A stretch of DNA of 64,000 nt from an uncultured candidatus Porisulfidus sp. (GTDB lineage: Bacteria > Pseudomonadota > Gammaproteobacteria > Poriferisulfidales > Poriferisulfidaceae): the NCBI GenBank assembly GCA_965204575.1, contig OZ241993.1, forward strand, positions 901,850 to 965,849, read 5' to 3'. Position 1 is the first letter of the stretch, and the number at the start of each line of letters is the position of its first letter. Positions 6,622-26,447 of the stretch are shown here, piece after piece. Under the pieces are notes generated by a model that saw nothing but the letters and a program-made list of their open reading frames with translations, did not search any database and was not told the DNA's origin. Made by a program: the position numbers and the translations under genes.

Positions 6622-8136
6622 GTGCATGACATGAAACATTATGAGTTAGGGACTGTAGAAGACCTAAAAAATTCTACCCGATTAAAACAAGAGGGTTTTG
6701 ATGAAAATTTTTTAAAAGGAAAACGCCCTTCACCGATCGAACCGGTACAAAATGTTATGGATTTGGCCGATGATATTAACAGCAAGAAATATGATGCCGT
6801 AATTGTTGGAAGTGGCCCGGGAGGATCAGCTGTTGCAAGAGAACTGGCAAGGGCAGGAAAAAAAGTAGTCGTACTGGAGTATGGGAAAGATCATCGAGGT
6901 AAATGGTATTACGGAACTGTCGCAGGACCTTTTCTCTACACCGAAAAACGTGGCTTTTTAAAATCTAAGGAAGGGGTAACAATTGTCCGCCCGATGCTTA
7001 CTGGGGGGGCAACCAACATGTTTGCAAGTGCTGCTTCAGGCCCTCCATCTTGGTGGTTTGATAAAACGGGTGTGGATATAGAGTCTGAAGTTAACGAAAC
7101 CATTGATGAGCTTCGGATTGAGGCGTTACCTGAAGAACTCACTGGCGCTGCATCACAACGTATTGGAGAAGCAGGCAGAGATCTAGGCATGGACTGGGTG
7201 CCCCAAACAAAATTCATTCATCCAAAGCGGTGTTACTCTGAATTAGATTGCGGTGATAAATGCATGTTTGGTTGTCGATGTGGAGGCAAGTGGACTGCAA
7301 ATGAATATTTGGATCAAGCTATTGAGGCCGGTGCGTCCGTTATTACCGAGTGTAACGTTCATAATGTTGAGATTGAAGATGGCGTAGCAACCGGGGTATA
7401 TGCTGAAGTACACGGGGAAAGATTCAGACTGAATGGCCAGGTCGTTATTGTTTGTGCTGGAGGAATTGGCACACCTAGAATTTTACAAAATTCAGGCATT
7501 CATAATGCTGGAGATGCACTGGGTGTAGACACTACATTTGTTGTATATGGTGTCATCAAAGAGAAAGGAAATACTGGTGATCCACCTATGACGATCAGCT
7601 ATTGTGACGATGAGAATGGTTTGATGTATTCGACACTCACTCAGCCATTTGGGCTATTTGCGCTTACTCAATATTACAAAGGTTGGAGGCATTTAAAGAA
7701 AGTGCCCAAGTTTCCGCGTATGCTAGGAATTATGGTTAAGATAAAAGAGGGCCTTAAAGGCTATGTGGCACCGGATGGACAGATCAGTATGCCTTTGTTG
7801 CATGATGATTTCCTCCGGGCAAACATTGGGTTCAGTACTAGCAAAAGTATTCTTATGAAAGCGGGATGTGATCCAAATACTATTTTTTGGAACCCCCCAA
7901 GAGGAACACATCCATGCGCAACAGTGCGTATAGGTGATCACTTGGATTCCGATCTAAAAACTCTTGCATTTGATAACTTATATGTCTCGGATGCGAGCAC
8001 TTTCCCATTACCCCTGGTACGTCCTCCGACACTTACAATTATTGGGCAAAGCAAGAGGTTGGCAAAGCATCTTATTGAAACCAAACTCAAAGACACTCAA
8101 ATTCAGAAAGAGGAAAATATGGCATTGGCACAATAG
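6622..8136 (+). CDS. GMC-family FAD-dependent oxidoreductase
   Basis: 504 aa. N-terminal FAD fold DAVIVGSGPGGSAVARELARAGKKVVVLEYG. Its length and C-terminal region fit GMC oxidoreductases. Confidence 0.7.
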   Translation: MHDMKHYELGTVEDLKNSTRLKQEGFDENFLKGKRPSPIEPVQNVMDLADDINSKKYDAVIVGSGPGGSAVARELARAGKKVVVLEYGKDHRGKWYYGTVAGPFLYTEKRGFLKSKEGVTIVRPMLTGGATNMFASAASGPPSWWFDKTGVDIESEVNETIDELRIEALPEELTGAASQRIGEAGRDLGMDWVPQTKFIHPKRCYSELDCGDKCMFGCRCGGKWTANEYLDQAIEAGASVITECNVHNVEIEDGVATGVYAEVHGERFRLNGQVVIVCAGGIGTPRILQNSGIHNAGDALGVDTTFVVYGVIKEKGNTGDPPMTISYCDDENGLMYSTLTQPFGLFALTQYYKGWRHLKKVPKFPRMLGIMVKIKEGLKGYVAPDGQISMPLLHDDFLRANIGFSTSKSILMKAGCDPNTIFWNPPRGTHPCATVRIGDHLDSDLKTLAFDNLYVSDASTFPLPLVRPPTLTIIGQSKRLAKHLIETKLKDTQIQKEENMALAQ

Positions 8137-21411: not shown

Positions 21412-22029
21412 CTACTCGGGCAGTGCCTCCGAGAGGGTCTCGGAGACCGTTTCGGAGACCGTTTCGGCCAGCGTCTCGGTAGAACCCGGGTAGTGGAACA
21501 GGTCCTGCCAGTCCTCGGGCATCCACTCGACAACCTGCTGGGCAGCCTCGACAAAGTAGGGGATCAGCGTTGACTCTTGCCAGAACCCTGCTTCGGGAAT
21601 CGCGGTGGTACCGGCGATCAGCACCAGCACCAGCACCAGCAGGCCGCCGCGCAGCAGCCCGAACAGGAACCCCATGACCCGGTCGCTGCGCTGCAGGACG
21701 CCGCTGCCCTTGTCCTTGGCCATCTGGGCGAACAGTCGGTGCAGTTGCGACACCACGACGAAGGTGAGGAGGAACAATACGATCCCGGCGACCGGCGCGT
21801 GAAACTCGGTGAGGCCATAGGTGCGCTCGCCCAAGGTGACCTCGTCGAATATCTCGGGTACGAACTGCGCACCGAACTCGGCGAACTGGAAGGCCACGAC
21901 GAGCCCCACCACCCAGGCCAGGATGGTGACCAGTTCCTCGGCGAAACCGCGCAGCCAGCTCAGGATGCCGGAGATCAGGATGATCAATGCGATCATCACG
22001 TCAACCAGGGTGGCGCCGAGAATGGTCAT
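21412..22029 (-). CDS. cvpA: colicin V production protein CvpA
   Basis: 205 aa, four TM helices. Conserved cvpA-purF arrangement. C-terminal (SETV/L)n repeat tail. Confidence 0.85.
   Translation of the reverse strand: MTILGATLVDVMIALIILISGILSWLRGFAEELVTILAWVVGLVVAFQFAEFGAQFVPEIFDEVTLGERTYGLTEFHAPVAGIVLFLLTFVVVSQLHRLFAQMAKDKGSGVLQRSDRVMGFLFGLLRGGLLVLVLVLIAGTTAIPEAGFWQESTLIPYFVEAAQQVVEWMPEDWQDLFHYPGSTETLAETVSETVSETLSEALPE
21431..21478 (-). repeat. four degenerate 12-nt tandem repeats (gagaccgtttcg-like) encoding the (A/S)ETVSETVSETLSEA tail of CvpA
   Basis: Direct reading of 21431-21478 gives gagagggtctcg / gagaccgtttcg / gagaccgtttcg / gccagcgtctcg. Confidence 0.6.
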
Positions 22030-22514
22030 GGCTGCCGGACGACCCAGCCCTGGTGCACTTCGGTAAGGTTTTTCTTGGCCTTGATGCCTTTCAGCACGTG
22101 TTCAGCTTCCTGCTGGCTGGGATAGGGGCCGACCCAGATTCGCTGGTGGGTCTTGCCGTCGGGCGCGTCCTTCTCGAACAGGTTGGTGCGGTAGCCCGCC
22201 TCGCGCATGGCGTCGCGGATCTCGGTGGCCTTAGCGGCGTTCTGGAATCGGCCGACCTGGATAAACCACTTGTCCTTCGGCGCCAGAGCGGCAGCTTCTC
22301 CGGCATCCGGGCCGGGCATGGCCCGGGTCTCCGGCGCATTCATGTCGGCGGGGAACGTTTGGTGGGTGAAGACCAGTTCCTTCGGCGCGGCGACATCCTG
22401 CAGCGGCCGGACCAAGTCGGGACGCTGCGTGTCAAGCAGCATCGGGATCACTAGAACCCCAATGAGAATGAGCAAAACGGCGCCGAGGAGCCGTTGTTTG
22501 AGTGCGAGTTCCAA
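22026..22514 (-). CDS. dedD: SPOR-domain cell-division protein (DedD-like)
   Basis: 162 aa. N-terminal TM helix, C-terminal SPOR-like region WFIQVGRFQNAAKATEIRDAMREAGY ... VGPY. ATGA overlap with cvpA. Synteny folC-dedD-cvpA-purF. Confidence 0.7.
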   Translation of the reverse strand: MELALKQRLLGAVLLILIGVLVIPMLLDTQRPDLVRPLQDVAAPKELVFTHQTFPADMNAPETRAMPGPDAGEAAALAPKDKWFIQVGRFQNAAKATEIRDAMREAGYRTNLFEKDAPDGKTHQRIWVGPYPSQQEAEHVLKGIKAKKNLTEVHQGWVVRQP

Positions 22515-22713
22515 CGCCAGAAGTCGGGAGCTGTCGCGGGGAGGACATTATAGCCTTTTAGCAGGGTTTTTGCCGGTTCTTGGGTTGTTTACAAAGATGC
22601 TTTGCATCTAAGTACTGCGCTGATGGTGTGCTCTTTAGAGCCAAGGCAGACAAGAATTGTAGTTATGTTAATGTAGTTACATAAATGACACGAGTCGTCA
22701 AGGCCCGAAAAGC

Positions 22714-23016
22714 ATGGCCCACAAGCAAAACACCATGAAGAAGAAAATTTCTGAAAAACTTACCAAGCAACAAAAGAGGGAGATTGCGGCCCTTGCCGAA
22801 GAAGAGATTGATACGAGCGATATCCCTGAAATTCTGGATTGGTCTGGTGCCAAGCGCGGATTGCTGTATCGGCCGGTGAAGCAGCAGATCACGCTGAGGC
22901 TGGATGCCGATGTAATTGCATGGTTTAAGGCAAATGCGCCCGGGGGACGGGGATACCAGACTGAGATAAATCGTGTCCTCCGCGAATATGCCAGACCAGC
23001 CTTCAAGCGAAAATAA
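22714..23016 (+). CDS. BrnA-family antitoxin-like protein (no adjacent BrnT)
   Basis: 100 aa. ITLRLDADVIAWFKANAPGGRGYQTEINRVLREY matches the BrnA signature (IxxRLDxDVLxWFK ... GYQTRIN ... LRxY). The upstream 200 bp has no BrnT-sized ORF. Confidence 0.6.
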   Translation: MAHKQNTMKKKISEKLTKQQKREIAALAEEEIDTSDIPEILDWSGAKRGLLYRPVKQQITLRLDADVIAWFKANAPGGRGYQTEINRVLREYARPAFKRK

Positions 23017-23050
23017 CGATCAGATTTTGATTCGTGGTGCGTCAATTTTT

Positions 23051-23938
23051 TCAGTCCCTGTTTCTCAAGCCAAGGGCATGTAGCCAGGCATCAATTTGCC
23101 CGAATGCATCCTGCTGCCACTGATCGGGAGTCCTGCTTTGCAACGCACGGGTTCCCTCAACAAACTTTCTTACTGAAGTCGGTCCAAAACCATCGACCGT
23201 TTCGAACTTCTCGTCGATTGTCGTATAACTGTTTCTGCCATCTTCATGCTCCAGCATTGGTCTACAGGCTTTAGCCAGCGCGTTGGGGCCGCCTGGATAA
23301 TTGCGGATACAGTAGTAGATATCGTAAGCATCTTTCATCTTCAGCCGATTGCCGAGCGCGAAGCCTTTCATCACAAGAAATGCGGGAATGGATGCGGCTG
23401 CGATGCGGACGCGGTTGATGCCGCCTTCGGGCATAGGGCCATCAATGTCAATCATTTCAAAAAACTGCAAGGCGAGTTTGGCACCATCAGCTCTTTGGGC
23501 AGCGAAGCCGTCAATTAGTGGGGGCCGGTTTGGCACGATGTCAGCATCTTTTGGCATCAGGAAATCAACAACGATACTGATAGATGTGCCGCCATCTTTT
23601 GGCTGAATTCGCCGCACGAGTTGAAACTTCGCCCGCTTTTTATCCTGGGTATAGCCATGTTCAATCAGATCGGTAAGCAACTCCACATATTCGCCATTGC
23701 CAAGCGCTTCCGCATCAAGGACAAGATCAGCATCGGTTGTGCCGACATGTTGCATGTCTTTGCTGTTGAGGAGCAACCAAGGGATCGCCCCACCTATGAC
23801 TACGAATTTACCCCTGAAACTACCAAGAATCTGCCCGATCTCGACGAGGACAGATTTCACCGCCTCGGTTGTGCGGTCGTCATAATCAGCTGCTGATAGC
23901 GGTTCGCCGTCACGGAGGTCATTGCGTTTTATTGCCAC
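23051..23938 (-). CDS. nucleotidyltransferase, AbiEii/DUF1814-like toxin
   Basis: KFVVIGGAIPWLLLNSKDMQHVGTTDADLVLD matches the AbiEii GGTAL ... R.T.DIDL NTase motif. Start is uncertain: a GTG at 23938 overlaps the upstream gene's stop as GTGGCAATAA, whereas the track ORF extends to 23998. Confidence 0.55.
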   Translation of the reverse strand: MAIKRNDLRDGEPLSAADYDDRTTEAVKSVLVEIGQILGSFRGKFVVIGGAIPWLLLNSKDMQHVGTTDADLVLDAEALGNGEYVELLTDLIEHGYTQDKKRAKFQLVRRIQPKDGGTSISIVVDFLMPKDADIVPNRPPLIDGFAAQRADGAKLALQFFEMIDIDGPMPEGGINRVRIAAASIPAFLVMKGFALGNRLKMKDAYDIYYCIRNYPGGPNALAKACRPMLEHEDGRNSYTTIDEKFETVDGFGPTSVRKFVEGTRALQSRTPDQWQQDAFGQIDAWLHALGLRNRD

Positions 23939-24999
23939 GTCAGGACCTCTCGCCTCAAGTGCTCGGCTGCTTCCTCGCCTCGATCTCCGGAAATCCACAG
24001 ATCAAGGTAGGTCTGGACCGGATTCGTGCAAACCACGTTTGGCATAGGCTCCACCGAGTTTGCAAGCAAGCCCTGATTCTTTAAGATGAGAACTTCGACG
24101 TTTTCTCCCTTGTCAACGAGAGACGCATCAAGCACATCCTTGATTCGGGCGGCTCCCTTCCTGTCAGCATAGAAGTAGTGGGTGCCTGTCCGGGCGTAAG
24201 GCGCAATCCAAAGTGCGGCCGAAAAAGACGCGAATGCGGTGTGGCAGTCAAACAGCGGCGCCGAGAATATCTCTTTGGTGGCTTTCTCGAAGGCCGATCC
24301 ATGGAGATGGGTATAAAACTTTTCGATGCTGCCGGACGGGCGGGAATAGATTTCACGCCACGCGTTCAGCAGTGAATCAGGGTCGGCAAGAGCCATGCCG
24401 TCGTCCCCGATTTCCACCCACTTGCGTTCCAGCAACAATTTGCGGACGTTACTGACCTGGCCGAGGCTGGATTCTGCGGCCTCGGCGAGTTCCGCTACCC
24501 GCCAGGTACGCTTCGAATCACTGAGCATGACGTGCAGGATTTCTGCTGCCTTCGGGCTGAACAGCGACTTCAGTGCTCGCTTCTCTGAGGCAGGCCGTCC
24601 CGGGACACTGACGTCGATCAGAATCCCTGGGGCCTGAAAGAATGCATTTCCATGGAGGTCGAGATAGTTAATGCCATATTCGCCACAGATCTCGCGGGAC
24701 TTTTCCGAGAGAAAAGGGGCGATCAGAACAGGCAACGCATCGATATCCATGCGAGCAATGGCATCGTGGAGTTGCAATGCGCCATGGTGTGCGTGGCGCG
24801 GTTCACCGTTGCTTTTCACCTCGCAGACAATCTTGTAGGGCTGGTTGAAGGCACGAATTGATACAAGAAAATCCACGTAGCGGTTAGTGCCGCTAACGCA
24901 TGCCCCGGCGTCAATCTTGTCGACTTTAATTTCTGGATTACGGCTGAACAAGTTTTGCAAGCTCTCAACAGCCAGTGCCATGATGTCTATCTCTTTCAT
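23929..24999 (-). CDS. AbiEi-like antitoxin/regulator with an extra N-terminal PD-(D/E)xK-like domain and a central wHTH
   Basis: 356 aa. N-terminal D-FLVS ... IVCEVK resembles a PD-(D/E)xK core. The middle RTWRVAELAEAAESSLGQVSNVRKLLLERKWVE looks like a wHTH. The C-terminal LLANSVEPMPNVVCTNPVQTYLDLW resembles the AbiEi C-terminal domain. Located immediately upstream of the NTase. Confidence 0.45.
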   Translation of the reverse strand: MKEIDIMALAVESLQNLFSRNPEIKVDKIDAGACVSGTNRYVDFLVSIRAFNQPYKIVCEVKSNGEPRHAHHGALQLHDAIARMDIDALPVLIAPFLSEKSREICGEYGINYLDLHGNAFFQAPGILIDVSVPGRPASEKRALKSLFSPKAAEILHVMLSDSKRTWRVAELAEAAESSLGQVSNVRKLLLERKWVEIGDDGMALADPDSLLNAWREIYSRPSGSIEKFYTHLHGSAFEKATKEIFSAPLFDCHTAFASFSAALWIAPYARTGTHYFYADRKGAARIKDVLDASLVDKGENVEVLILKNQGLLANSVEPMPNVVCTNPVQTYLDLWISGDRGEEAAEHLRREVLTWQ

Positions 25000-25142
25000 C
25001 TAAAATTATCAATTCGGCGAACGTTGAAAACACATTATATAGCGAAAAGAGTAATAGACCAAATGCCGTAGGGCGTACTTAAATTAGCTTCTTTACGGGC
25101 AGAAGACCATCTACCCTGGATCAGTTGAAATTCAGGAATTGC

Positions 25143-26447
25143 TCAGGCAGAAGGTGCCTTTTCCCGATCCAGTTCTATCCCCTGCGACTGATGCAGCAGC
25201 ACCTCTCCGACCGCGAACACCGAACCGAACACCACCACGGCCCCTTCCTGCCCGGCTCTTGAGGCCGCTTCCCGGTAGGCTTCCGTGATAGTGGGGTGGA
25301 TATGCACTGCGGGCAGTTTGCAGGATTCCGCCAGCACCCGCAGGGTTTCCAGCGGGATGGTGCGGGGGGATTCCACTTCGCTCAGGTGCCAGCTTTCGAC
25401 CAGCGGACTCAGTGGCCCCAGAATGTTTGCCACGTCCTTTTCCTGCAATGCGGAGAAGACCGCGTGCAGCGGTCGCCCGGGCCGGTAGCGGCGAAGGTTG
25501 CGGGCTAGGTTGATCGCCCCCTCCGGATTGTGCGCGATGTCCAGCACGGTATCCACGGGTTTGCTCAGGACCTGGAAGCGTCCGGTCAGGCTGACGTCTT
25601 CGAGCGCGTGCCGAATGGTCTCCGGATCGAACCGTCCCAGATGGTGCAGCACGGTCAGGGCGCTGGCCGCATTGTTCAGTTGCACCCTTCCGGGCAACTG
25701 AGGCGGGGTCGGCAGGTCCAGGCTGATGCCGTCGCGGTGGCGGTAGCGCCAGCGGTCGGAGCCGAGAGGCTCCGCGAAGAAGTCGCTGCCAATGCGCTGT
25801 AGTGGTGCGCCCAGGCGTCGGGCCTGATCTGACAAGCTGGCGGGGAGGTCGGGTTCTCCGCAGATCACGGGCCGCCCCGGGCGCATGATGCCGGCTTTTT
25901 CCCGCCCGATCGATTCCCGGGTCCGGCCCAGCCACTCGGTGTGGTCGATGCTGATGCTGGTAATCAGGGCGACGTCGGCGTCCCACAGGTTGACCGCGTC
26001 CATCCGCCCGCCAAGGCCGACCTCCAGGATCGCATAGTCGATCTCTCGCTCGCGAAAGACCGACAGGGTGGCGAGGGTGCCGTACTCGAAGAACGACAGG
26101 CTGGTGTCGCCGCGGGCCTGTTCCACCTGTTCGAAAGCACGGCACAATGACGCATCGTCGACCTCCGCCCCGTCGATGCGGACGCGTTCGTTATAGCGAA
26201 TGAAATGCGGCGAAGTATAGGCGCCGACCCGCCCGTGCGGGCGCAGCATGGCTTCCAACAGGGCCACGCTGGAGCCTTTCCCGTTGGTCCCGGCGACGGT
26301 GACGATCCGGAAATCGGGCGCTTCCAGCAGGTTCATGCGGCGGGCCACCACCCGAATCCGTTCCAGCCCCAGGTCGATGCTGCTGGTGTGCAGCTGCTGC
26401 TGCCAATCGACCCACTCGGACAGGGAGGAGAATCGCATGGCGGGCAC
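25143..26447 (-). CDS. folC: bifunctional dihydrofolate synthase / folylpolyglutamate synthase
   Basis: 434 aa. P-loop VAGTNGKGS and Mur-ligase-like domains. Confidence 0.9.
   Translation of the reverse strand: MPAMRFSSLSEWVDWQQQLHTSSIDLGLERIRVVARRMNLLEAPDFRIVTVAGTNGKGSSVALLEAMLRPHGRVGAYTSPHFIRYNERVRIDGAEVDDASLCRAFEQVEQARGDTSLSFFEYGTLATLSVFREREIDYAILEVGLGGRMDAVNLWDADVALITSISIDHTEWLGRTRESIGREKAGIMRPGRPVICGEPDLPASLSDQARRLGAPLQRIGSDFFAEPLGSDRWRYRHRDGISLDLPTPPQLPGRVQLNNAASALTVLHHLGRFDPETIRHALEDVSLTGRFQVLSKPVDTVLDIAHNPEGAINLARNLRRYRPGRPLHAVFSALQEKDVANILGPLSPLVESWHLSEVESPRTIPLETLRVLAESCKLPAVHIHPTITEAYREAASRAGQEGAVVVFGSVFAVGEVLLHQSQGIELDREKAPSA

What the first reader, a model, noticed from the sequence alone, without database searches (positions are those of the whole stretch)
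22515..25142. AbiE-like pair with an unusual three-domain antitoxin (PD-(D/E)xK-like + wHTH + AbiEi-C), plus an orphan BrnA, inserted between folC and dedD
The toxin (23051..23938/23998) has the DUF1814/AbiEii NTase motif GGAIPWLL ... R ... TTDADLVLD. The upstream partner is 356 aa, much longer than typical AbiEi. Its first ~130 aa contain D-FLVS ... CEVK, a PD-(D/E)xK-like core, before a wHTH and an AbiEi-like C-terminus. The stop of this gene overlaps a GTG of the toxin (GTGGCAATAA). A BrnA-signature antitoxin gene with no BrnT upstream is preceded by an imperfect inverted repeat (TTATGTtaatgtagTTACATAA, about 22650-22672), a likely operator. The whole 2.6-kb block is AT-rich and splits the otherwise universally adjacent folC-dedD pair.
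Basis: partly seen in the sequence, partly recalled or inferred. Interest (0 to 1): 0.65.

Follow-up and report, generated by a model that had tools for sequence, protein, structure and literature searches.

The report
AbiE-like toxin pair with nuclease-fold partner
A small AT-rich island between folC and dedD carries a member of a widespread, database-annotated but functionally unproven branch of the AbiE/MenAT toxin-antitoxin family, in which the presumed antitoxin has a conserved NucS-like nuclease-fold domain that neither Pfam nor the papers I could search describe.

Summary
Genes, coordinates, motifs, the 10-nt GTG/TAA overlap, the lone BrnA gene and the GC drop (0.66 to about 0.50) are all present.

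- **The pair.** It is the COG4861/PF09952 + DUF1814 (COG4849-type) pair flagged by Dy et al. 2014. RefSeq annotates it as AbiEi/AbiEii family.
- **The 356-aa length is the family norm.** More than 1,000 homologues are 350-368 aa, so this is not a mis-called start.
- **Other domains.** The middle is a winged HTH. The C-terminal domain is NTase-like, as published for AbiEi.
- **BrnA.** It is a relic of a brnTA module. A near-identical core relative (L083) has only brnT(frameshifted)-brnA at this site and no pair.
- **Caveat.** The only tested COG4861-type pair, M. tuberculosis MenA2/MenT2, showed no toxicity.

Verdict: a new member of a known kind, with an under-described domain.

The parts
22585..25181 (.). 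Variable, AT-rich segment between dedD and the 3' end of folC. It holds the relic brnT, brnA and the two-gene pair.
   Evidence: GC is 0.46-0.58 here against 0.61-0.70 in the flanks. Homology to L083 is 94-96% nt in the flanks. It stops at 22584 and resumes at 25182; only brnA matches in between, at 79%.
25034..25062 (-). Putative sigma-70 promoter of the pair: -35 TTGGTC (25062..25057), 17-nt spacer, -10 TATAAT (25039..25034).
   Evidence: Read from the sequence. The block is conserved in L001 (TTGACT-17-TATAAT) and L002 (TTGACC). The consensus scan did not call it, because the -35 matches only 3 of 6. Inference only.
23929..24999 (-). Gene for the 356-aa COG4861/AbiEi_2 partner, the presumed antitoxin and regulator.
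   Evidence: More than 1,074 homologues of 350-368 aa. AF2 model has pLDDT 86.8. dN/dS is 0.13-0.25. An NTase gene lies directly downstream in nearly all of 80 genome loci.
24601..24999 (-). N-terminal PD-(D/E)xK (NucS-like) domain, residues 1-133. Conserved residues are D43, E60, K62, P67, C105, D114, G117 and N118.
24388..24591 (-). Winged helix-turn-helix domain, residues ~137-204.
23932..24387 (-). C-terminal AbiEi_2 (PF09952) domain, residues 205-356. It has an NTase-like alpha/beta fold without a conserved DxD. D333 is invariant.
23929..23938 (-). 10-nt overlap, GTGGCAATAA: the toxin's GTG start and the partner's TAA stop. A GAGAGG Shine-Dalgarno-like run lies 7 nt upstream.
   Evidence: Read from the sequence. 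The start is confirmed by the 295-aa homologues.
23051..23938 (-). Gene for the 295-aa DUF1814 nucleotidyltransferase, the presumed toxin. Motifs: G49-G50, T67-x-D69-x-D71, K191-x2-A194-x3-R198, K202-D203, D206.
22735..23016 (+). brnA: a lone BrnA-family (ribbon-helix-helix) antitoxin gene of 93 aa. It would be 100 aa if the ATG at 22714 were used.
   Evidence: Pfam BrnA_antitoxin E 2.5e-16. In L002 the upstream ATG is ATA, so 22735 is the conserved start. dN/dS is 0.13-0.28. Homologues normally follow brnT.
22685..22738 (+). 17-codon relic of brnT (MTRVVKARKAWPTSKTP*). Its stop overlaps the brnA start as ATGA.
   Evidence: RVVKARKA resembles the BrnT C-terminal RIISARKA. The tblastn E is only 0.5-0.8 in a tiny database. 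Support comes from synteny with brnT-brnA in L083 at the same site.
22663..22684 (+). Inverted repeat TTATGT-N10-ACATAA inside a conserved block upstream of brnA, in the former brnTA promoter region.
   Evidence: Unique in the window, with 0 matches in 100 shuffles. Identical in L001. Arms are kept in L002. Not self-complementary in L083. Operator role is not shown.

Best explanation
The block is a horizontally exchanged cassette sitting in a variable hotspot between folC and dedD. Its core is a two-gene operon of the COG4861-COG4849 branch of the AbiE/MenAT nucleotidyltransferase toxin-antitoxin family.

**Shown by sequence or models**
- The two genes are translationally coupled through a 10-nt overlap.
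- The downstream protein has the DUF1814/MenT fold and a complete set of catalytic motifs. These include T67-x-D69, the geometry of the MenT1 T39-x-D41 and MenT3 S78-x-D80 phospho-acceptor sites.
- The upstream protein has three domains: a NucS-like PD-(D/E)xK domain with a conserved D...ExK, a winged HTH, and an NTase-like AbiEi_2 C-terminal domain.

**Inferred from characterised relatives (AbiE, MenAT1, MenAT3)**
- The NTase adds nucleotides to tRNA 3' ends and stops translation.
- The partner's C-terminal domain binds and neutralises it, probably by inducing auto-phosphorylation of T67.
- The wHTH represses the operon promoter.

**Inferred from conservation only**
- The N-terminal domain is a working, or at least metal- and DNA-binding, nuclease module. 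It gives the partner a DNA-directed input or output, for example sensing or cutting invading or aberrant DNA. This would link DNA events to release of the NTase.

**brnA**
- The neighbouring brnA is what remains of an older brnTA module whose toxin gene was deleted. It is still under purifying selection and is probably an autoregulated orphan antitoxin.
For: - **Family size and uniform length:**
- **Gene linkage in 80 genomes:**
- **Partner model and fold matches:**
- **Weak but collinear sequence signal to NucS_C:**
- **Conservation of D43, E60, K62, D114, G117, N118:**
- **wHTH and AbiEi_2 hits across the family:**
- **Toxin model and matches to MenT3/TglT, MenT1 and MenT4:**
- **Toxin motifs invariant:**
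- **Published mechanisms:** auto-phosphorylation at MenT1 T39 and MenT3 S78 (PMC11375011); AbiEi-induced phosphorylation (bioRxiv 10.64898/2026.01.19.700257); the COG4861-COG4849 association (PMC3985639).
- **Purifying selection on all three genes:**
- **Truncated NTase genes beside intact partner genes in 7 loci**, as expected if the NTase is the harmful component.
- **Cassette and hotspot:**
- **brnT relic:**
Against: - No member of the COG4861-type branch has been shown to be toxic. M. tuberculosis MenT2 was non-toxic in M. smegmatis and E. coli (PMC7450476).
- The window's partner scores just under Pfam's AbiEi_2 cut-off (20.1 against 21). It has no PADLOC or NCBIfam hit, and the toxin has only sub-threshold PADLOC AbiEii hits.
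- The D-E-K triad is altered in 13 of 80 genome loci, including E60Q five times. Catalysis therefore cannot be essential everywhere.
- No convincing operator-like inverted repeat was found in the pair's promoter region.
- I could not superpose coordinates to confirm that D43, E60 and K62 occupy the NucS catalytic positions.
- The toxin profile finds no solved structure by sequence alone.
Confidence: 0.6

Rival explanations
1. The N-terminal domain has a nuclease fold but does not cut. It serves as a DNA-binding, oligomerisation or ligand- or metal-sensing module that helps the wHTH regulate the operon or detect a trigger. The system is otherwise an ordinary AbiE-like toxin-antitoxin pair.
For: The triad is changed in 13 of 80 loci, with E60Q in five, which is the classic binding-competent, cleavage-dead substitution. 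D114-x-x-G117-N118 is invariant in all 80. This points to a conserved site that is not the textbook ExK. An uncontrolled nuclease fused to a repressor would be hazardous.
Against: D43 is 100% conserved, E60 88% and K62 86% in 57 representatives that share under 50% identity. The intact triad is present in 67 of 80 genomes. Pseudo-nucleases usually lose these residues.
Confidence: 0.27
2. The pair is not a toxin-antitoxin system. The three-domain protein is the effector or sensor, a regulated nuclease. The NTase is its regulator, modifier or signal generator and is harmless on its own.
For: MenT2, partnered with the COG4861 protein Rv0837c, was not toxic in two hosts (PMC7450476). The partner carries a conserved nuclease-type site. 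Its structural neighbours include ligand-activated defence nucleases: Can2, Card1, Cap4 and Shedu.
Against: The NTase has the MenT/AbiEii toxin fold with every catalytic motif and the phospho-acceptor Thr. NTase genes are truncated beside intact partner genes in 7 loci, which is the decay pattern expected when the NTase is the costly gene. The partner's C-terminal domain is of the NTase-like kind that neutralises AbiEii (PMC7319586).
Confidence: 0.1
3. A standard two-domain AbiEi/AbiEii pair whose antitoxin looks long only because the start codon was mis-called, or a decaying non-functional remnant.
For: None was found beyond the weak Pfam scores of the window proteins.
Against: Homologues align from residue 1 and are all 350-368 aa. 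The N-terminal 133 residues hold the most conserved positions of the protein. dN/dS is 0.13-0.28. There are no frameshifts or internal stops.
Confidence: 0.02

Closest known systems
M. tuberculosis MenA2-MenT2 (Rv0837c-Rv0836c), the COG4861-type MenAT pair
   Same: A COG4861 protein, much larger than its partner, sits upstream of a DUF1814 NTase gene (PMC7319586, PMC7450476). The window's family carries the PF09952 (= COG4861) domain and has the same gene order.
   Different: I could not retrieve the Rv0837c or Rv0836c sequences, so direct homology was not tested. MenT2 was not toxic in M. smegmatis or E. coli (PMC7450476). No N-terminal nuclease domain is described in the papers I could search.
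AbiE of Streptococcus agalactiae / Lactococcus (AbiEi COG5340 + AbiEii COG2253)
   Different: AbiEi has two domains (about 195-220 aa) with the wHTH at the N-terminus. Here a ~133-residue PD-(D/E)xK domain precedes it. There is no sequence similarity to COG5340 (PMC3985639) and no hit to the AbiEi_1/3/4 or PADLOC AbiEi models. No 23-bp inverted repeats were found in the promoter.
MenT1, MenT3/TglT and MenT4 toxins of M. tuberculosis
   Different: Sequence identity is only 13-18% in the structural alignments. There is no sequence-level hit to any solved structure. Their antitoxins, MenA1 (68 aa) and MenA3/MenA4 (COG5340), lack a nuclease domain.
NucS/EndoMS C-terminal nuclease domain and other minimal PD-(D/E)xK nucleases (AF1548, Can2/Card1 nuclease domains, XisH-like 2okf)
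   Different: Identity is 11-19%. [quoted passage not shown] It carries an extra invariant D-x-x-G-N motif. No activity is known.
BrnTA type II toxin-antitoxin system (Brucella abortus BrnT/BrnA family)
   Same: brnA is a clear BrnA_antitoxin family member. Close homologues sit directly downstream of, and overlap, brnT.
   Different: brnT is missing here; only a 17-codon remnant is left. brnA is therefore an orphan, though still under purifying selection.

Membership tests
COG4861-COG4849 pair (PF09952 AbiEi_2 partner + DUF1814 NTase) | The partner carries the PF09952/COG4861 domain. | tested here: met
   The window protein alone scores 20.1 bits against a cut-off of 21, E 8.8e-4, on residues 204-351. 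51 of 58 diverse family members and many close homologues hit PF09952. RefSeq names homologues 'AbiEi family antitoxin'. PF09952 = COG4861 per PMC7251935.
COG4861-COG4849 pair (PF09952 AbiEi_2 partner + DUF1814 NTase) | A DUF1814 NTase gene lies immediately downstream in the same orientation. | tested here: met
   Present in the window with a 10-nt overlap. Full-length in 70 of 80 genome loci. In the other 10, four are cut by contig ends, five hold truncated fragments, and one (L058) has no match.
COG4861-COG4849 pair (PF09952 AbiEi_2 partner + DUF1814 NTase) | COG4849-type motif III (KLxAaxxR) in the NTase. | tested here: met
   K191-G-F-A194-L-G-N-R198. K, A and R have the right spacing and are invariant in 30 homologues. 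Positions 2 and 5 differ from the published consensus (PMC3985639). No COG library was available for a direct assignment.
COG4861-COG4849 pair (PF09952 AbiEi_2 partner + DUF1814 NTase) | Toxin-antitoxin behaviour: NTase toxic, partner protective. | not testable with these tools
   Needs expression experiments. The one published test of this branch (MenT2) was negative (PMC7450476).
Canonical AbiE (COG5340 AbiEi + COG2253 AbiEii) | A two-domain antitoxin: N-terminal wHTH plus C-terminal domain, about 200-290 aa, COG5340. | tested here: not met
   Three domains in 356 aa, with the wHTH in the middle. No hit to the AbiEi_1/3/4 Pfam models or to any PADLOC AbiEi model.
Canonical AbiE (COG5340 AbiEi + COG2253 AbiEii) | DUF1814 NTase toxin with motifs I-IV. 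| tested here: met
   Pfam AbiEii scores 25.4 bits against a cut-off of 22.5. GG...T-x-D-x-D, K191 and K202-D203...D206 are invariant. The fold matches MenT/TglT.
Canonical AbiE (COG5340 AbiEi + COG2253 AbiEii) | Long inverted repeats (about 23 bp) in the promoter, bound by the antitoxin. | tested here: not met
   Only 6-bp palindromes (AACGTT, TATATA) occur between the partner's start and folC.
PD-(D/E)xK nuclease superfamily (N-terminal domain) | Core fold alpha-beta-beta-beta-alpha-beta. | tested here: met
   The model has H3-19, E24-31, E44-50, E53-61, H67-84 and E88-94, with block pLDDT mostly 86-93.
PD-(D/E)xK nuclease superfamily (N-terminal domain) | Acidic residue at the start of strand 2 and (D/E)xK on strand 3, conserved in the family. 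| tested here: met
   D43 precedes E44-50. E60 and K62 lie at the end of E53-61. In 57 diverse representatives D43 is 100%, E60 88% and K62 86% conserved. The full pattern is intact in 67 of 80 genomes.
PD-(D/E)xK nuclease superfamily (N-terminal domain) | Significant structural similarity to proven members. | tested here: met
PD-(D/E)xK nuclease superfamily (N-terminal domain) | Metal-dependent phosphodiester cleavage. | not testable with these tools
   Needs biochemistry. Model coordinates could not be superposed on NucS to check the active-site geometry.
BrnTA type II toxin-antitoxin system | BrnA ribbon-helix-helix antitoxin. | tested here: met
   Pfam BrnA_antitoxin scores 60.2 bits against a cut-off of 26.1.
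BrnTA type II toxin-antitoxin system | brnT toxin gene directly upstream, overlapping brnA. | tested here: not met
   No ORF of 40 aa or more lies in the 22515..22713 gap, apart from one that runs mostly antisense through dedD. Only a 17-codon remnant is present. Relatives L083, L084/L086 and L087/L088 do carry brnT.

The most novel reading that the evidence does not exclude
COG4861 proteins are not passive antitoxins. They are DNA-sensing, or DNA-cutting, switch proteins. A NucS-like nuclease domain detects or processes abnormal or invading DNA. Through the wHTH and the pseudo-NTase domain, this controls whether the partnered tRNA-modifying NTase is held inactive or released. That would be a fused sensor-antitoxin, or a two-effector defence system. 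It could also explain why MenT2 showed no toxicity in the standard toxin-antitoxin assay.
Probability: 0.25. Interest if true: 0.7.

Novelty: new member of a known kind. Interest (0 to 1): 0.45.

Why it matters
The COG4861-COG4849 branch is large.
- It has 507 clusters at 50% identity for the N-terminal domain alone.
- It has more than 2,000 toxin clusters at 90% identity.
- It occurs on 92 plasmids and in many Proteobacteria and Acidobacteria.
- It includes a Mycobacterium tuberculosis locus.

Yet none of its members has a demonstrated function, and its one tested member did not behave as a toxin-antitoxin pair.

The 'antitoxin' carries a conserved NucS-like nuclease site that no Pfam model covers. 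The current PADLOC models do not recognise the window's copy. This gives a concrete, testable lead on what triggers or complements DUF1814 toxins.

For this genome the locus is otherwise ordinary. It also illustrates how a folC-dedD gap acts as a swap site for small defence and addiction cassettes.

Tried and rejected
- **Mis-called start for the 356-aa gene.** Rejected.
- **Longer toxin ORF from GTG 23998.** Rejected, because homologues are 289-295 aa.
- **BrnA as a third component of the pair.** Rejected. It accompanies the pair only in the two closest relatives, L001 and L002, out of 81 loci. In L083 it occurs at the same site without the pair.
- **Sequence-level links to solved structures.** The partner and toxin profiles gave nothing useful. 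Only wHTH regulators appeared at E >= 0.05, and NucS at E 0.67.
- **Exact look-ups.** The window's partner and P0121 are not on record.
- **PADLOC and NCBIfam.** No call for the partner.
- **Pfam on odd-length N-domain relatives.** No alternative architectures were revealed.
- **Operator search upstream of the pair.** Only 6-bp palindromes were found.
- **Consensus promoter and terminator scan.** Nothing above chance.
- **Rfam and tRNA scans of the island.** Empty.
- **Phage records.** No homologue.
- **M. huakuii 'AbiEi' paper.** It concerns a 221-aa COG5340-type protein, so it is not relevant.
- **Residue-level mapping of E60/K62 onto the NucS catalytic residues.** Not obtained, because the tools give no coordinates or alignment for that hit.
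Full report
**1. Observation**

The ORF map and the sequence show, from left to right:

| Feature | Coordinates | Strand | Evidence |
|---|---|---|---|
| dedD-like SPOR gene | 22026..22514 | - | Pfam SPOR, |
| BrnA-family gene | 22714/22735..23016 | + | BrnA_antitoxin E 2.5e-16, |
| NTase gene | 23051..23938 | - | see below |
| 356-aa gene | 23929..24999 | - | see below |
| folC | 25143..26447 | - | Mur ligase domains, |

- The partner's TAA stop (23931..23929) lies inside GTGGCAATAA, whose GTG (23938..23936) starts the NTase.
- A 100%-identical database protein and its relatives are 289-295 aa. The GTG start is therefore right, and the longer ORF from 23998 is not used.
- GC drops from 0.61-0.70 to 0.46-0.58 across about 22400-25200.
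- Rfam and tRNA scans of the block are empty.

**2. What the pair is**

- The 356-aa protein has more than 1,074 database relatives. The 120 listed are 344-368 aa, nearly all 350-368, and they align from residue 1.
- Many relatives carry PF09952 (AbiEi_2), and NCBI names them 'type IV toxin-antitoxin system AbiEi family antitoxin'. RefSeq plasmid annotation agrees.
- PF09952 corresponds to COG4861 (PMC7251935).
- Dy et al. 2014 (PMC3985639) singled out COG4861-COG4849 as the second widespread gene pair beside COG5340-COG2253, the canonical AbiE. They noted that the two antitoxin families share no sequence identity.
- In 80 genome loci fetched with the family profile, a full-length NTase gene follows directly in 70. 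Four more are cut by contig ends. In seven loci the NTase is missing or reduced: six truncated (L004, L011, L014, L018, L035, L074) and one absent (L058).
- The window's own scores are weak. AbiEi_2 gives 20.1 bits against a cut-off of 21, AbiEii gives 25.4 against 22.5, there is no PADLOC or NCBIfam hit for the partner, and the toxin has only sub-threshold PADLOC AbiEii hits.
- Current defence-system models would therefore probably miss this locus, although it clearly belongs to the family.

**3. The three-domain partner**

An AlphaFold2 model built on 42 homologues has mean pLDDT 86.8.

*N-terminal domain (residues 1-133)*
- The predicted order is helix, three strands, helix, strand, followed by further elements. 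D43 sits just before strand 2, and E60-x-K62 sits at the end of strand 3.
- Foldseek ranks EndoMS/NucS first, at E 4.5e-4.
- At sequence level the signal is faint but points the same way. Three of 26 diverse N-domains hit Pfam NucS_C. One is collinear over residues 9-114 against profile positions 4-106 of 124, at E 0.0077, which is below the cut-off. The domain profile lists NucS at E 0.67.
- No Pfam family covers the domain in any of 58 diverse members.

*Conservation of the N-terminal domain*
- An exhaustive search with residues 1-135 found 507 clusters at 50% identity. The full-length ones are about 340-385 aa, so the fusion is the family's standard build.
- In 57 such representatives the conservation is: D43 100%, E60 88%, K62 86%, P67 98%, C105 95%, D114 100%, G117 100%, N118 98%.
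- In the 80 genome loci the pattern D43-E60-K62 / D114-G117-N118 / D333 is intact in 67. D114, G117 and N118 never vary. E60 is Q in five loci, and K62 is replaced in six.
- The nuclease-type site is thus strongly but not universally kept. A second invariant motif, D-x-x-G-N, marks something the textbook triad does not explain.

*Middle and C-terminal domains*
- Residues 205-356 are the AbiEi_2 domain. They match TM1012 and ANT(2'')-Ia, which are small NTase folds, but lack a conserved DxD.

**4. The NTase**

- Sequence alone finds no solved relative.
- Invariant residues in 30 homologues are G49-G50, T67, D69, D71, K191, A194, R198, K202, D203 and D206.
- T67-x-D69 reproduces MenT1 T39-R-D41 and MenT3 S78-K-D80, where the Thr or Ser is auto-phosphorylated on antitoxin binding (PMC11375011). 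The same mechanism is now reported for AbiEii T65 (bioRxiv 10.64898/2026.01.19.700257).
- K-x2-A-x3-R fits the COG4849 motif III (PMC3985639).

**5. Mechanism**

*Shown*
- An overlapping two-gene operon.
- A complete NTase active site with a phospho-acceptor.
- A partner with a nuclease-like domain, a wHTH and a pseudo-NTase domain.
- Purifying selection on all genes, with dN/dS 0.13-0.28, similar to the neighbouring cvpA.

*Inferred by homology*
- The NTase blocks translation by extending tRNA 3' ends.
- The partner's C-terminal domain neutralises it by binding and by induced T67 phosphorylation.
- The wHTH autoregulates. A conserved TTGnnn-17-TATAAT lies 35 nt upstream of the partner's ATG.

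*Inferred from conservation only*
- The N-terminal domain cuts or senses DNA and provides the trigger or a second output.

*Main caveat*
- The only tested COG4861-type pair, MenA2-MenT2, showed no toxicity in M. smegmatis or E. coli (PMC7450476). The 'antitoxin' label is therefore by analogy.
- The truncated NTase genes beside intact partner genes fit the NTase being the costly component.
- Altered triads occur in 3 of 7 such loci against 10 of 70 intact ones. That hints the N-domain works with the NTase, but the numbers are too small to be significant.

**6. BrnA and the site**

- BrnA homologues are numerous, at about 96 aa, and normally sit just after an overlapping brnT.
- L083 is a metagenome-assembled genome whose flanks are 94-96% identical in nucleotides to the window, closer than L001 or L002.
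- L083 has trpA-accD-folC-[brnA, brnT]-dedD-cvpA and no pair. Its brnT is interrupted by an in-frame stop after about 34 codons, consistent with a frameshift, and its brnA is only 79% identical.
- Homology to L083 stops at 22584 and resumes at 25182, inside the last codons of folC.
- In the window the brnT body is gone. A 17-codon ORF (22685..22738, MTRVVKARKAWPTSKTP) resembles the BrnT C-terminus (RIISARKA), and its stop overlaps the brnA ATG at 22735. The match is weak and rests mainly on synteny.
- In L002 the upstream ATG (22714) is ATA, so 22735 is the conserved brnA start.
- The inverted repeat TTATGT-N10-ACATAA (22663..22684) is unique in the window. It lies in a block that is identical in L001 and nearly so in L002. 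In L083 the homologous stretch is not self-complementary. It may be part of the old brnTA promoter, and an operator role is not shown.

*States of the folC-dedD site*

| Genome | Content between folC and dedD | Source |
|---|---|---|
| L083 | brnT (interrupted) and brnA only | |
| Window and L002 | the pair plus brnA; L002 is 87% identical over 6 kb | |
| L001 | the pair plus brnA, a second (AbiEi_1-type) AbiE pair and a Zorya-like block | |

- Between the window and L001, the partner gene and brnA are 94-99% identical although the flanks are 76-91% identical.
- The 5' half of the NTase gene is only 66-74% identical between them.
- The site is therefore a hotspot where cassettes, and even parts of genes, are exchanged.
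- The family also occurs on 92 plasmids and in no phage record.

**7. Novelty and score**

- The locus is a new member of a known, database-annotated family.
- What is not in Pfam, PADLOC or the papers I could search is that the family-wide N-terminal extension is a NucS-like PD-(D/E)xK domain with a conserved active-site-like motif. That literature search covers open-access papers only.
- This is a useful, testable lead for a large uncharacterised branch of the MenAT/AbiE family. It is not a surprise of kind.
- Interest: 0.45.

Noticed in passing
L001:1-7618 (metagenome scaffold NGUY21-1 scaffold_9): Next to the same pair + brnA block, this relative carries a second AbiE pair (AbiEi_1 + AbiEii) and a Zorya-like gene set (EH_Signature protein, SNF2 helicase with Mrr_cat nuclease). 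The gap upstream of dedD is therefore a multi-state defence hotspot.
   Followed up: partly
window 23400-23900 (5' half of the NTase gene) versus L001: The window and L001 are 94-99% identical across the partner gene, the 3' part of the NTase gene and brnA. They are only 66-74% identical across the NTase catalytic core. L002 is 72-85% identical there, so a patch of the toxin gene appears to have been replaced in one lineage.
   Followed up: partly
L004, L011, L014, L018, L035, L058, L074 (genome loci, positions ~7000-7900): An intact COG4861 partner gene is followed by a truncated, fragmented or missing NTase gene. This is the decay pattern typical of toxin loss with antitoxin retention.
   Followed up: partly
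window 24646-24660 (residues D114-N118 of the partner): The motif D-x-x-G-N is invariant in all 80 genome loci and all 57 diverse representatives. It is more conserved than the ExK of the nuclease motif. Its role, and its position relative to the active site, are unknown.
   Followed up: no
L083:2230-2520 and L084/L086:2266-2475: brnT upstream of closely related brnA genes is itself often damaged. L083 has an in-frame stop after about 34 codons, and L084 and L086 have shortened ORFs of 55 and 69 aa. In L085 no brnT gene is called, although the locus is otherwise the same as L084 and L086. This suggests repeated decay of BrnT with retention of BrnA.
   Followed up: partly
window 25143-25181 (last ~13 codons of folC): Homology to the closest relative, L083, resumes only at 25182. 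The 3' end of folC therefore differs and seems to have been replaced together with the cassette.
   Followed up: no
one search hit list (P0249, P0259, P0266 and similar, 96-290 aa): Many database proteins matching the N-terminal nuclease-like domain are much shorter than 350 aa. They could be fragments from short metagenome contigs or stand-alone versions of the domain. I did not resolve which.
   Followed up: no
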